Assembly (NCBI GenBank): GCA_951406725.2
Contig: OX597821.1
Location: forward strand, 53,940,001 to 54,004,000
Direction: 5' to 3'
DNA from: Octopus vulgaris
Taxonomy: Eukaryota
DNA: 64,000 nt
In this document: piece by piece, positions 8,743 through 28,950 of the stretch
How the letters are laid out: each line of letters opens with the position of its first letter
Position numbering within the stretch: the stretch's first letter is position 1
Notes under the pieces: model-generated
Seen by the model: only the letters and a program-made list of their open reading frames with translations
Told to the model about the DNA's origin: nothing
Database searches by the model: none
Program-made: the position numbers and the translations under genes

Positions 8743-10090
8743 CTATCCGTTTTCTTTAGGGGACCAAAAACGTAACAGAAATTTAGTCACATGTGGGCAT
8801 GATCCGAAAAGCTCTGTCCTTGTATTTAGACATGTGGTAGGGTCTAAGCTGCTTTTCCAGATAAGCCATCTCTCCATGTCGCATAAACCGCACCTTCCGC
8901 TGCCGTTAGTATAGGGCTTACATCTGGCCAAAATCTTCCATTGTATGTTATAATCGACACCTTTATCTCTTAAAGACCAAATATGATTGGATAATTGTGT
9001 CACTTTTCTTTTGTTCCAGTGCCTAAAGCTCAAAGTGTGGTTATTGAACCTGGCCTTGAAATTACCCTCTGTCAGGCCCACGTATTTCTTCGTCGAAACG
9101 GTGTCTTTAGTGGTTATAGAGTTTACGGTAGCTTCATATATGATGGTCTTGGACATGCAAGCTCCATTTAGCGGGCACAATTCTTTATTCCTGCATGAAC
9201 AGCTGTTTTCTTCTTGTGTTTTTTGTATGTTATGATTGATTATGTTTTTAAAATTGGTAGTTGAACTAAAACTAATTTTTAAATTGTGTCTATTGAAGAG
9301 TTTCCTATAAGCATGGTTAACTGGAAAATGTCTATCTATCAGTGCTAGGAAATATTTACCTATATTGAAGGCCACCTCGGGTGAGTAAGGGGCGTAAACC
9401 AGATGACCTTCCTATTTCTATTATTCCTTTTCCTTATTGTTGGGCTGGTGATAGGTGTATATTTTATTTTTTCGCTAAAACCACTATCTTTTAAAGCTTT
9501 ATTATAAACTGGGGCAACGCTATTGAAGATGTCCTCATTAGATGAGAGGCTAGAAATCCTCTTACTAATATTTTTAACTAAATTTTTGAATACTATAGGG
9601 GGATGGCATGAACCTACATTAATATAACTTAGTCTATCATTGGGCTTCCTATAAGGCTTATAAATATTATTATTAAGATCTAAGGAAACGTCTAAGAAAT
9701 TGACAACCGTCAGGTTAGTGTCTATAGTTATACTAAGTCCGAAGTGTTTCATTAACTGGATAATATCCTTCCTAAAACGATCTTGTGCTGGTCCATTTGT
9801 ATTAGCTGTTAAGGCGAGGGCATCATCTTTGTAGATGGCGAAATGTACGTTAGGGAATGTCTTACTGAAGGTATCTAGGAGAAAGAGTCCAATTAGATCA
9901 CAGATGCCTGCCCCATCATATGAACCCATGCTCACATCGAAAGCGCCCTCCGTGTCGGTGTTTTTTACCCACTTTGCATTCTCACTGAAAAGTAATGTCT
10001 TTCTAGCATGGAAGATTATATCCTTATCATTGGTACTAATTTCTATGAAGTCACTAGCGAAGATTAGGGCTTTATCTAGCAGTTCTAGAA
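8743..10090 (-). pseudogene. PLE RT (partial) + GIY-YIG endonuclease ORF with one frameshift near 9390
   Basis: FDVSMGSYDGAGICDLIG, AIYKDDAL, VNFLDVSLDL, YINVGSCHPP, KVIWF; then CSCRNKELCPLNGAC, IIYEATV...KYVGLTE...FKARFNNH, CGLC and SCPH; the frame is open up to the truncation at ~10090. Confidence 0.92.
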
Positions 10091-18130: not shown

Positions 18131-18157
18131 TAATATACATGATACAACATGGAAAAG

Positions 18158-18261
18158 ATCACATTGAAGGTATCAGTTACTGTCTGATCACTTAAGTTAA
18201 ACAATACCAAGCCTAGTTAATACTTAGATGGGGGACTACTTGGGAAACCTAAATGCTGTAA
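18158..18261 (+). pseudogene. Decayed 5S rRNA-derived sequence (pseudogene or SINE3 head)
   Basis: atcacattgaa...gtctgatcacttaagttaaacaataccaagcctagttaatacttagatgggggactacttgggaaacctaaatgctgta aligns colinearly with animal 5S rRNA (box A aagttaagca, box C ttggatgggtgacc), with many transitions. Confidence 0.85.
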
Positions 18262-18783
18262 TCATTAGATGCAATTAGATGTAAAAAGAAGCACCATATG
18301 TCATGACAGTGCTTCTGAGCCTCCATCAAGAGTAGAGGTTTGAAAGGAGAAAGAAAAAGCATGTATATATATATATATGCATGTTTATGCGTAGATTTCT
18401 ATGTATATCTCCATTTGAGGATGTATGACTTGTTCTTATGTTTTCCGGGTATGTTGTGTGTGATGTGTTTGTGTATAATGTGTGTTCGGAATTATTTGTA
18501 CATATAATCATTTAAGAAAAAGAGATGATAAAGGAAAAAGATGGCTATATTATGAATTTCATTGGCTTTCAACTGTTTCTGATATATGATGCAGTGTACT
18601 CATATTTAAGTGCCTGAATAATGTTCTGTTATTTCATTGGAGCCTTGAATATGAAGTGCAATTTATTTTGTAAAAAGAATTACATTTGTGTAATATACAG
18701 GGATGGTATTGCCAGTGATAAAATCAGAGCTGATGTATATGAAAAGTGTATATCCAAAAAGCAATTAGATTTAATAGTAGTAA

Positions 18784-23870: not shown

Positions 23871-24763
23871 CTCTGCATTAACCAGAGGGATGATACAAAA
23901 GATCTGAATTAATCTTGAAGACTTATTAGTAGTAATTACTTATGTTGGTTCGAAAGAGAGGACATTGATTATCATGATGTTCGCTTTTTTCATAAACGTC
24001 CTTTCTTTGTGACATTTATGATATCTGTTATAGCAGGAAAGATTAACTTAAATTTTGGGAGAAATGTTTAAATTACTTGTGATCTAACACTTAAATATTT
24101 CCCATGATTCAAAAAGCATTACATGTTTCCATGAAATTCAATGCTGTTTGACAGTTTTCCTTAGGCTAAATACTTTTCAGAATTATTCAGAAAGAAGTTA
24201 ATTCAATCTGTTTTAGCTGGTGATGTAATGTGAAACCGAAGCCGAAATTTTCCACTTTTTATGTTTGAATCAGTATGACATTAAATTATTTATCATTTAT
24301 ATAATATGCTCAACATGTCAATGTTATTCACAATACTTGCCAGTTTGCTTAGTTAATATGGAAACATTTAGCTTGCATACTTTTCGTTGTTTTTGAATCA
24401 AGAAAGTTAATGACTGATATAAAAATAAATCTGTAAGCTTTGACCCAAAAAACATGTCATTTTGCCACTGCAACTTTATATATGGAAACATCTCATTATA
24501 TGTAATTCTCTATTTCTGTGATTGTAAAAACCACTTTGCAAAAACACACACAGTAAAACTGCTGTATGTAAACATTTGTTGAGGAAAAATAAAATTTTGT
24601 ATACTTACTTTCATATATATATATATAGATATAAAATGGAAATATTTACTGCCTATCTTAAAAATAAAACTGGTTTTATCTAAATATATATATATATATA
24701 TATATGTAAAATTTTAGCATGTTTCAACTCTTTCTTATCTTCTTTACCTATATATATATATAT

Positions 24764-24992
24764 TATTAACACCATATACTTAATGTATATGCTTTGTGTG
24801 TTTTCTGGCGGCTGCAACACCATGGAGGAGTATATATACTCTAAAAGTGCTGGGTGTAAAACACCTCAGCATCATAGATAGGTGAGATAACTCACCCTCA
24901 ATCCCATTCAAGAGAGATGGACACCGGGTGTTTCACCATTTTTGTGGCTTTTCAACATCTGCCTAGGTATACTACAGCTGCTTTTATTCAAT
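24764..24992 (-). mobile_element. Short structured element between (TA)n tracts carrying a hammerhead fold (pLTR/retrozyme-like)
   Basis: Island richer in GC than its flanks, bounded by TA repeats; three hairpins (24828-24841, 24848-24871, 24881-24896) plus a hammerhead at 24915-24960. Confidence 0.7.
24915..24960 (-). ncRNA. Type I hammerhead ribozyme, U3:A8 core variant
   Basis: Minus strand: agatg-TTGAAAA-gcca caaaaa tggt-GAAA-cacc c ggtg-TC-catct; 5-bp stem I, 4-bp stem II, near-palindromic stem III, GUC triplet. Confidence 0.7.
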
Positions 24993-25018
24993 ATATAAAT
25001 ATATATACATATACATAC

Positions 25019-25127
<109 letters not shown>

Positions 25128-25918
25128 GTATATATATAATGGTAATGCTTCAAAATGATCCTTTCACCAATCCTCACCTGTTTCCAAACAAGTTAGTATT
25201 TTCTCATGGGCAGTCACGGTATGAGAGTAATGCTCGTTTACAATGTCAAGAAGAGGAGACACAAACATACATGCATACATACTTGCATACACACATATAT
25301 TCATACGTATATACATACTTTTAAAGATGGTGATTTGCTGAAAACACATATATTTGCATTGTCCTGAAACTGTCTAAGGAAATCTCTCAGAAAATGGGAA
25401 ATCAAAATTGAAACAACTCTGATGGAAATGCTGTATATTATAAAATTGATATATTTGACTGAAAGAATATCTTTTATCAAAAAGGAAAAAAAATATGAGG
25501 CTTAAGTACATTCAAAATTTTCAACAAGACCAAGTGTGTATGAAAACTTTGAAAATTCTCAAAACAAAAAATTGAAGTTCTCAAATTGTGGTAAAAATTT
25601 CAGTTTCTTAAAATATAAACTGTAACAAATGTGTGTATGCAATTTTCATTTTATTCAATTCTTGAAAATTATAAAATGGCGAAATCTTATGGTAAGATCG
25701 TTTTCATTCTATTTACATGTTGCACATTCTTGTGTTGATAGCTTTCATATTATTATAAACAAATAGGCTTCACATACATATATTTGCACATTATCAGGGA
25801 TAACAGTAATTAAATAATTAATTACATACATTTTCCATGATTATCAAGGGAGATGTACATTTCTTTCTTTTCATTGTGTTGAAACATCATCTCTATCTAT
25901 CTATGATTCTGTCTGCTT

Positions 25919-27759: not shown

Positions 27760-28950
27760 TAAAGTGAACAAGACTAGCTTAGACTAGTCTAGAAAAATAC
27801 ATCAGCAGCCATTATCTCTCCGTATGCTCCTCAGTGAGAAACATCTCCAACACCTGTCTGACTTCTGTTACAACATCATCAACTTTAGATGGCCTTTAAC
27901 AGTGATTGGCATGAGGGATTGTGGCTGATGATGAAGAATTACAACTTTGACAACAATCTCATCAAAGTACTCCAATTATTGTATGAAAACTCAATCAGTT
28001 TCGTTCACCTGGACAATACTGGAGATTCGCTTTGGACAACAATGAGTGTTCAACAAGGATGTCTCATCTCACTAATGTTTTTCAACATCTTCTTGGAGAA
28101 CACCAAGCAGAAGACACTGAAGACTTTCACCCTTCTATTTCCATAGGAGGATGGCCCATTTCCAACTTACACTTTGCAGATATTAACCTGTTAGGAAGCA
28201 GTGAAGTAGAACTACAGGAGCTCACCACCAGACTGGAAAAATATCAGGAACATATGAGATGGAGATCTTCCCTGAAAAGAACAAGATCCTGGTTAATAGT
28301 AACAAAACACAGCAGTCTACATCATGCTGGATTGAAAGAGACTTGATAAAGTGAACACATTTGAATATCTAAGATCCACTTTGACCAAGGATGGCAGATC
28401 CCAAAGGAGATAACAAGACTTTTGCTGCCATGATGAAGCTGAACAACAATTCCATTAGTTTTCAATCAAGATTCAGAGTGTACGAGATTCTGGTGACTTT
28501 GATCCTTTTGCATGGGTGTAAGAGCTGGACTCTTATAGCTGACATCGAGTGAAGAATCCAGGCATTTGAGCACCAGTGCTTCAGAAGGTTATTACACATC
28601 CTGTACACTGAGCATGAAATGAACAGCTTTGCCAGGCAGCAAATCAACAAATACTCTGGCAAACAGAAACTACTCCCTGCATATGAAAAAACAAAAAGAA
28701 ATTTGTCTTGGTACATTCATGTATCCAGGCATAACCCCCTGCCCAAAATCATTCTTCAGGGCACAGTTGAGGAAGGGTGAACAAGGGGCAGACAAAGAAA
28801 ATCCTAGTTTGACAACATCAAGGACTGGACAGTCACAACACATTGACCCTGCTGTGCACAACAAAGAATGGAGTCCAGTGGTGACAGTTGACTATGGAAG
28901 CATCTAGAGTGGCATCCCAATGACTAGCTGCATCAGTTACGGAATCTTTA
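27760..28950 (+). mobile_element. Decayed RTE LINE RT and 3' end with a (GAT)n tail
   Basis: AFNSDWHEGLW, VQQGCLISLMFFNIFLE, ISNLHFADINLL, FEYLRS, GCKSWTL, IQAFEHQCFRRLL. Confidence 0.85.

What the first reader, a model, noticed from the sequence alone, without database searches (positions are those of the whole stretch)
24764..24992. Hairpin-rich ~230-nt element with a hammerhead whose core has the compensatory U3:A8 pair
Seen (minus strand): AGAUG-UUGAAAA-GCCA(CAAAAA)UGGU-GAAA-CACC(C)GGUG-UC-CAUCU, with predicted cleavage after GUC between 24920 and 24919. Three more hairpins follow, the unit is bracketed by (TA)n, and there is no ORF. Known: C3-G8 is a Watson-Crick tertiary pair required for hammerhead catalysis, and U3-A8 is a rare tolerated swap. 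Inference: the two core deviations are exactly the compensating pair, suggesting selection for activity in a small non-coding ribozyme retroelement or a solo pLTR of an unrecognised PLE family.
Basis: partly seen in the sequence, partly recalled or inferred. Interest (0 to 1): 0.75.

Follow-up and report, generated by a model that had tools for sequence, protein, structure and literature searches.

The report
Fossil hammerhead retrozyme with Penelope footprints
This stretch is a worn, back-to-back copy of a scattered 346-base non-coding repeat whose predicted self-cutting (hammerhead) RNA carries an already known base swap, and the ends of its copies suggest that Penelope-type jumping genes likely spread it.

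Summary
The hammerhead-like motif, its U3/A8 core and the GUC site (24920|24919) are there as described. The stretch is one decayed copy of a dispersed, protein-free, 346-nt circularly permuted repeat (116 distinct loci examined; copies at most 91% like their majority, so apparently extinct). U3-A8 is the family norm (92 of 126 cores), inherited, not selected at this locus. A C3·A8 mismatch lineage also spread (21 of 126), and this copy lost part of helix I. Copies end at two sites about 35 nt apart beside microsatellites and pair up 5'-to-5' inverted (35 of 40): the Penelope footprint. The insertion is really 24760-25000, with a 33-nt inverted arm. It is not a solo pLTR: 69 of 156 fragments exceed one unit and none flanks a PLE ORF as its pLTR. 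Genome-wide, 686 of 931 canonical-geometry hammerhead cores are U3-A8 and 14 are C3-G8; intact Penelope pLTRs also carry U3-A8. U3-A8 is published (Perreault 2011; Cervera 2014). Best reading: a non-LTR retrozyme-like element copied by Penelope enzymes, likely from an RNA circle. Cleavage and circles are untested. This scan reported the same kind earlier on other DNA, in this genome and others.

The parts
24760..25000 (.). Whole insertion: two arms of one repeat family joined 5'-to-5', each 3' end running into (TA)n
   Evidence: outer limits are ambiguous by a few bases inside the AT runs
24760..24959 (-). Main arm, unit positions 1-199, about 84% identical to the family majority; ends at the family's short 3' end
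24915..24960 (-). Type I hammerhead-like motif (helix I 4 inherited pairs plus 1 chance pair, helix II 4 bp with CAAAAA loop, near-palindromic helix III); predicted cut 24920|24919
   Evidence: cleavage untested
24949..24955 (-). Core strand UUGAAAA with U3 (24955) and A8 (24950) in place of C3-G8; N7 = A here, C or U in most copies
24960..24967 (-). Probable 8-nt remnant of the unit just upstream of the hammerhead, followed by a 7-nt deletion that removes the bulge and outer 5' strand of helix I
   Evidence: inference; 6 of 8 match, weak; not recovered by the local alignment
24968..25000 (+). Inverted short arm, unit positions about 204-236 (the 'tail'), ending at the family's long 3' end
   Evidence: 29 of 33 identical to the subfamily majority
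24880..24897 (-). Local hairpin in this copy; in the full unit this strand is predicted to pair with the part upstream of the hammerhead in a long rod
24848..24871 (-). Predicted hairpin
24828..24841 (-). Predicted hairpin (14-nt palindrome)
24773..24791 (-). Predicted AU-rich hairpin just before the short 3' end
25001..25138 (.). (TA)n array, likely the insertion target
24750..24759 (.). Short (TA)n on the other side

Best explanation
This is a decayed copy of a dispersed, protein-free, 346-nt circularly permuted repeat with a U3-A8 type I hammerhead motif, likely a non-LTR retrozyme that was copied into (TA)n by the reverse transcriptase-endonuclease of a Penelope-like element (PLE). Shown: unit length and permutation, the family-wide U3-A8 core, two fixed 3' ends about 35 nt apart, 5'-to-5' inverted arms, microsatellite neighbours, and intact PLEs in the same genome. 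Inferred: more-than-unit transcripts self-cleaved (probably as dimers, through the palindromic helix III) and closed into a strongly self-paired circle; the PLE protein cut AT-rich DNA and primed cDNA from both target strands at either of two internal start sites; the two cDNAs joined at their 5' ends. This copy has a 200-nt arm from the short start and a 33-nt arm from the long start. It lost part of helix I, stands alone and is likely inactive. The family appears extinct.
For: 346-nt profile that closes on itself. 69 of 156 fragments exceed one unit, longest 671 nt, 3 hold two hammerheads. 3' ends: 72 of 156 at unit 181-210 and 39 of 156 at 221-240; the same two peaks in loci fetched with the other half of the unit (18 and 14 of 41). 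35 of 40 adjacent pairs are 5'-to-5' inverted, none 3'-to-3'. Microsatellite within 40 nt of 61 of 115 such ends, against 384 of 3000 random positions. The 30-40 bp tail, the two RT starts, extension of both strands and AT-rich targets are PLE properties (PMC11167929); inverted 5'-truncated copies likewise (10.1101/2021.04.23.441226). Majority unit folded as a circle: -124.9 kcal/mol, z -9.35 on 100 shuffles. Subfamily differences break fewer predicted pairs than random placement (A1 against B: 9 against 17.5, P 0.0008; all six comparisons P at most 0.014). Geometry matches Rfam HH9 (6-bp helix I after a 4-nt bulge, 4-bp helix II, identical loop). Helix III self-duplex -12.9 to -16.9 kcal/mol against about 0 as a hairpin. 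Intact 781-aa RT + GIY-YIG ORFs with 456-nt pLTRs exist; 15 of the 30 GIY loci carry a pLTR-type minimal hammerhead with U3-A8.
Against: No cleavage or circle was observed. No tandem array of this family was found (longest 1.9 units among 116 loci). Direct homology to a PLE pLTR was not found in 50 GIY loci; the likeness of the 3' tails is weak: not significant in a local test (22 to 291 of 300 shuffles) and 0, 0, 9 and 22 of 2000 only in a global test on segments chosen afterwards. RNAalifold on 44 near-full copies gave no consensus fold. In one search the slid controls show as many two-sided changes (19-27 pairs) as the structure (24), so copy-level covariation is weak. The hammerhead fold lies 2.8-6.1 kcal/mol above the minimum-energy fold in all four subfamily majorities. 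The C3·A8 lineage amplified with a mismatched core. 5' ends thin out near the upstream cut site (only 2 of 116 run more than 10 nt past it), which also fits a linear template.
Confidence: 0.62

Rival explanations
1. ORF-less mini-PLE copied from linear partial-tandem transcripts. The PLE protein is still the carrier, but no circle forms; the hammerhead is weak or dispensable, or only trims the 5' end of the RNA.
For: Most long copies stop at or before the upstream cut site, and L031 starts exactly at it. No long arrays. Mismatched cores amplified. Hammerhead mutants did not affect insertion by a PLE in vitro (PMC11167929).
Against: L048, L068 and L146 run past two cut sites. The long rod that brings the two cleaved ends together is kept across subfamilies. 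5' ends do not pile up at the first cut site.
Confidence: 0.25
2. Solo pLTR or terminal fragment of an unrecognised autonomous PLE family.
For: PLE-type ends and inversions. Most PLE hammerheads occur as single truncated copies, and U3-A8 is known in them (PMC4209133).
Against: The sequence upstream of the hammerhead is the unit's own 3' part with a 346-nt period. PLE protein matches 1 of 116 loci, separated by (TA)n and another repeat. The hammerhead has canonical geometry, not the minimal pLTR type.
Confidence: 0.05
3. SINE-like element carried by a LINE, with the TA run as its tail.
For: Dispersed, short, non-coding, microsatellite at the 3' end.
Against: No fixed 5' end; circular permutation; two internal 3' ends; inverted pairs with both 3' ends facing out. 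No tRNA or 5S match over the element in Rfam.
Confidence: 0.04
4. A ribozyme kept active by selection at this locus, or a chance motif.
For: Both core changes in this copy are complementary, and the other core letters are intact.
Against: The pair is inherited; the copy lost helix I parts and has G-U at the base of helix II; cores decay in copies (whole core intact in 15 of 42 and 7 of 30). Chance is excluded by hundreds of candidates in the genome.
Confidence: 0.03

Closest known systems
Metazoan non-LTR retrozymes (Cervera and de la Pena 2020, PMC7229834; Li, Clavereau and Pollet 2026, bioRxiv 10.64898/2026.07.22.740005)
   Same: 150-450 bp unit, under 50% GC (42% here), no ORF, canonical-geometry type I hammerhead, strongly self-paired predicted circle, PLEs present in the same genome.
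   Different: Core U3-A8 (and C3·A8) instead of C3-G8; dispersed copies of at most about two units rather than arrays; PLE-type paired 3' ends and inverted arms; no young copies; expression and circles not shown.
PLE pLTR minimal hammerheads, including the U3-A8 variant of Schistosoma mansoni Cercyon elements (Cervera and de la Pena 2014, PMC4209133)
   Same: U3-A8 covariation (about 1,300 hits there), palindromic helix III suited to dimers, mostly single copies, some in opposite orientation 100-700 bp apart.
   Different: There helix II is 7-8 bp and helix I 4-5 bp with an extra base before helix II; here 4 bp and 6 bp with the HH9-like loop. Here no ORF lies between repeats.
Poseidon PLE of Anolis carolinensis, PAc (Frangieh et al. 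2024, PMC11167929)
   Same: Two internal RT start sites that give a 30-40 bp tail, AT-rich targets, both strands extended; hammerhead activity not needed for insertion in vitro.
   Different: PAc is autonomous with a C3-G8 hammerhead over its start codon; this family encodes nothing.
Natural U3-A8 core variants (Perreault et al. 2011, PMC3088659) and Rfam Hammerhead_HH9 (RF02275)
   Same: U3-A8 reported in several natural hammerheads and as active in vitro; HH9 helix sizes and loop 2 match.
   Different: Score 19-20 bits against a 52-bit cut-off; there a rare variant, here the majority state of a genome.

Membership tests
Type I hammerhead ribozyme | Three helices around the conserved core, helix I open | tested here: met
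   (helices I, II, III 88%, 88%, 91% paired in 44 copies)
Type I hammerhead ribozyme | Watson-Crick pair at positions 3 and 8 | tested here: met
   U3-A8 in this copy and in 92 of 126 cores; mismatched in 21 C3·A8 cores
Type I hammerhead ribozyme | Self-cleavage after the NUH triplet | not testable with these tools
   no raw RNA reads were available
Rfam Hammerhead_HH9 | Score at or above 52 bits | tested here: not met
   20 bits, 19.1 bits for copy L056
Non-LTR retrozyme | Short (150-450 bp), low-GC, ORF-less unit with a type I hammerhead, no LTR | tested here: met
   346 nt, 42% GC
Non-LTR retrozyme | Head-to-tail repeats, dimers or more | tested here: inconclusive
   69 of 156 fragments exceed one unit and 3 hold two hammerheads, but the longest is 1.9 units; a sibling family has a 360-nt trimer
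Non-LTR retrozyme | Stable self-paired circular fold | tested here: met
   predicted only: z -9.35 for the majority, fold kept across subfamilies; RNAalifold on decayed copies gave none
Non-LTR retrozyme | Abundant linear and circular monomer RNA in vivo | not testable with these tools
   no RNA holder on record; contigs only
PLE-mobilised insertion | Optional 30-40 bp tail (two 3' ends), inverted 5'-truncated arm, AT-rich or microsatellite target | tested here: met
Autonomous PLE or its solo pLTR | Repeat flanks an RT + GIY-YIG ORF | tested here: not met
   1 of 116 loci has PLE protein sequence, a separate insertion; no unit match in the pLTRs of 50 GIY loci. The samples are not exhaustive.
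PLE minimal hammerhead | Long helix II (6-8 bp), short helix I | tested here: not met
   helix II 4 bp, helix I 6 bp

The most novel reading that the evidence does not exclude
In this animal the whole Penelope-dependent system, autonomous pLTRs and at least four unrelated mini-circle families, has left the textbook C3-G8 pair for U3-A8, and source lineages with U3·G8 and C3·A8 kept spreading. The hammerhead fold would then be kept as a protein-assisted or recognition module whose 3-8 pair is nearly free, and the PLE enzyme would copy an RNA circle from two fixed starts on both strands of one cut. Searches that require CUGANGA would miss most such elements.
Probability: 0.25. Interest if true: 0.7.

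Novelty: new variant of a known kind. Interest (0 to 1): 0.42.

Why it matters
Retrozymes are proposed to borrow PLE enzymes, but the papers read argue from co-occurrence and pLTR likeness. Here the copies carry the PLE's mechanistic footprint (two starts about 35 nt apart, inverted arms), and intact PLE ORFs in the same genome make the partnership testable in a tube. The natural series U-A, U·G, C·A, C-G at positions 3-8 tests whether self-cleavage is needed for spread. This particular copy is a fossil; the younger sibling families are better test material.

Tried and rejected
Rfam over the whole window lists only microsatellite-driven miRNA hits and no hammerhead. No second copy in the window. 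No young copies: best non-self identity 86% with an A-type query and 81% with a B-type query; only 40 candidates are scored per search. CpG decay of a C3-G8 source as the origin of C3·A8 was rejected: among 21 C3 cores in family A, 17 read C7-A8, 2 C7-G8 and none U7-G8, whereas another CpG guanine changes in 11 of 77. The GIY-YIG match 3 kb from L044 and the PLE beside L150 are independent insertions. Sibling families share only the hammerhead with this unit. Expression: no RNA holder listed; laid records were contigs of runs only guessed to be RNA, at low depth; this is no evidence either way. One search listed only two variable positions and could not give 3/8 frequencies. A pile-up of 5' ends at the cut site was looked for and not seen clearly. 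Core positions change a little less than the rest in family A (19 of 375 against 981 of 10531, p 0.003) and not significantly in B (21 of 267 against 766 of 6963, p 0.11); this may be subfamily variation outside the core or search bias, so it is not taken as selection on copies. The protein search confirmed RT/GIY relatives but gave no clade name. Look-ups of earlier findings by sequence found nothing.

Full report
Observation. The motif is on the minus strand as described: U3 at 24955, A8 at 24950, predicted cut 24920|24919. The 229-nt stretch folds better than shuffles (z -3.45), but the 56-nt hammerhead alone does not (z +0.61). Rfam HH9 matches at 20 bits, below its 52-bit cut-off. A descriptor set at the motif's own thresholds finds it once in the window and in 0 of 30 shuffles.

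The family. The genome is 2.8 Gb in 227 contigs; an octopus-like host is my inference, not tested. The stretch has 584 first-look candidates, of which 40 were scored, mostly 76-84% identical; other queries gave 83, 869 and 1023 candidates, which are not copy numbers. From 75 distinct loci the repeat resolves to a 346-nt unit whose end runs back into its start. With all 145 family loci (116 distinct; 29 duplicates dropped) there are 156 fragments of 60 nt or more: 69 exceed one unit, the longest is 671 nt, 3 hold two hammerheads, and identity to the own-subfamily majority is 83% at the median and 91% at most. The family looks extinct. Two main groups (A, B; 83% identical majorities) and subgroups were set by eye from a weakly supported tree and the pattern hits.

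Insertion anatomy. 3' ends fall at unit 181-210 (72 of 156) or 221-240 (39 of 156); 5' ends are spread around the unit. Loci fetched with the other half of the unit show the same two peaks (18 and 14 of 41). A microsatellite follows 61 of 115 such ends, against 384 of 3000 random positions. Of 40 adjacent fragment pairs, 35 are 5'-to-5' inverted. The window copy has this form: a 200-nt arm on the minus strand ending at the short end (24760), and a 33-nt arm on the plus strand (24968-25000, 29 of 33 identical) ending at the long end, both in (TA)n. A PLE protein in vitro starts at two internal sites that match the 30-40 bp genomic tail, extends both strands and prefers AT-rich DNA (PMC11167929, abstract and main text read). 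Inverted 5'-truncated copies and the tail are PLE hallmarks (10.1101/2021.04.23.441226, passages).

The hammerhead. In the majority it has a 6-bp helix I after a 4-nt bulge, a 4-bp helix II and the same loop as HH9, so canonical, not minimal, geometry. Helix III is a palindrome in two compensated versions (positions 32/35: U-A 43, C-G 10, U-G 14, C-A 7, other 8 of 82); it is stable as a self-duplex and not as a hairpin, as expected of dimer-acting hammerheads (PMC4209133, parts 1-2 of 4 read). Of 126 cores, 92 are U3/A8, 21 C3/A8, 4 U3/G8, 2 C3/G8 and 7 other. In loci not picked by the core pattern, 54 of 72 are U3/A8. An exact C3-G8 pattern in the family context finds nothing. C3 is far above the U-to-C background, goes with C7 (19 of 21 against 22 of 55, p 7e-5) and clusters on a 59-row tree built without positions 3, 7 and 8 (8 changes against 15.6, 0 of 500 shuffles; only 2 of 56 branches starred). 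So a mismatched C3·A8 source amplified. Group B and most of A are U3-A8, so U3-A8 is likely ancestral (inference; the root was not tested). The window copy lacks the bulge and outer 5' strand of helix I, its fifth pair is accidental, and helix II starts with G-U; it is likely inactive.

Circle fold. The majority folded as a circle gives -124.9 kcal/mol, z -9.35 (antisense -7.01; 100 shuffles), with a rod of about 29 bp that extends helix I and brings the cleaved ends together. Differences between subfamily majorities break fewer pairs than random placement in all six comparisons. Against this: RNAalifold on 44 near-full copies found no consensus; on 44 copies (38 of the 42 segments plus 6 added B copies) 85% of cells pair, but slid controls show as many two-sided changes; and the active fold is 2.8-6.1 kcal/mol above the minimum.

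The PLE partner. The genome has many GIY-YIG matches (148 of 150 scored, 6136 candidates), among them intact 781-aa RT + GIY-YIG ORFs at about 98% identity with 456-nt pLTRs. 15 of the 30 loci carry a pLTR-type minimal hammerhead with U3-A8, though helix I there is only 2-4 A-U pairs. The unit has no alignment to these pLTRs. Its tail resembles the pLTR end only weakly. PLE protein matches 1 of 116 family loci, as a separate insertion. So the carrier class is inferred from footprints; the partner family is not identified.

Genome-wide context. A generic canonical-geometry pattern has 931 exact matches, control 0: C3-G8 14, C3·A8 75, U3·G8 156, hence U3-A8 686. Most belong to at least three sibling groups, some young (95-98% pairwise), unrelated to this unit outside the hammerhead. 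One is a C3·A8 trimer with a 360-nt period whose first two units are 99% identical. The pattern fixes helix II at 4 bp and the loop, so it says nothing of other hammerhead types. I ran it after reading earlier notes of this scan, which report the same kind of element on other DNA.

Mechanism. Shown: unit, permutation, core states, ends, inversions, targets, intact PLEs. Inferred: transcription beyond one unit, dimer-assisted cleavage, circle closure, copying by a PLE protein from two starts on both strands. The main rival is the same carrier acting on linear partial tandems, with the ribozyme dispensable; 5' ends thin out near the upstream cut site, yet L048, L068 and L146 pass two sites.

Known and new. 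Non-LTR retrozymes and the proposed PLE carrier are published (PMC7229834, passages, part 2 of 6 and discussion read; 10.64898/2026.07.22.740005, parts 1-3 of 5). U3-A8 is published as natural and active in vitro (PMC3088659, passages) and in about 1,300 Schistosoma PLE motifs; a natural U3 with G8 is cited in PMC7151607 (one passage). Seven searches found no report of cephalopod retrozymes or of U3-A8 in a canonical retrozyme hammerhead; a 2026 octopus repeat annotation does not use the words hammerhead or ribozyme (PMC13282606, passages). The library lacks most subscription papers, I read no supplements (those of PMC4209133 and PMC7229834 could hold such cases), and Lunse et al. 2017 on small PLE hammerheads is recalled, not read.

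Verdict. A real feature: a fossil copy of a retrozyme-like, PLE-mobilised family; a new variant of a known kind. Interest 0.42.

Noticed in passing
G000 genome-wide; L195-L224, L226:950-2170: At least three sibling mini-element groups with canonical-geometry hammerheads and U3-A8, U3·G8 or C3·A8 cores, some young, period about 360 nt; L226 is a C3·A8 trimer.
   Followed up: partly
L116:430-5672 (also L118, L129, L130, L131): Young PLE family with a 781-aa RT + GIY-YIG ORF, an extra upstream frame of 359-479 aa without Pfam match, 456-nt pLTRs with a U3-A8 minimal hammerhead and two 3' ends about 37 nt apart.
   Followed up: partly
L115:1659-1992: Near-perfect inverted repeat carrying a C3-G8 hammerhead-like motif with palindromic helix III on each arm.
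   Followed up: no
L115:7103 and 8275 (+); L117:5730 (-): Further hammerhead-like motifs of other families followed by AT-rich tails: two U3-A8, one C3-G8.
   Followed up: no
family majority, hammerhead core: Core letters 5-8 are predicted to pair with the cleavage triplet region in the minimum-energy fold, an inactive form that might keep a circle closed. Speculative.
   Followed up: no
window 18145-18264 (+): Weak full-length 5S rRNA-like match, 32.3 bits against a 38-bit cut-off; possibly a 5S-derived SINE head or pseudogene.
   Followed up: no
window 9528-9746 (-): Small decayed PLE protein fragment, E 4e-7.
   Followed up: no
window 27889-28907 (+): Broken frames that look like a LINE reverse transcriptase by eye; not searched.
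   Followed up: no
runs X7 and X8: Contigs of two runs under other organism labels hold many B-like relatives of the unit, with joints going back about 340 nt in X7.
   Followed up: partly
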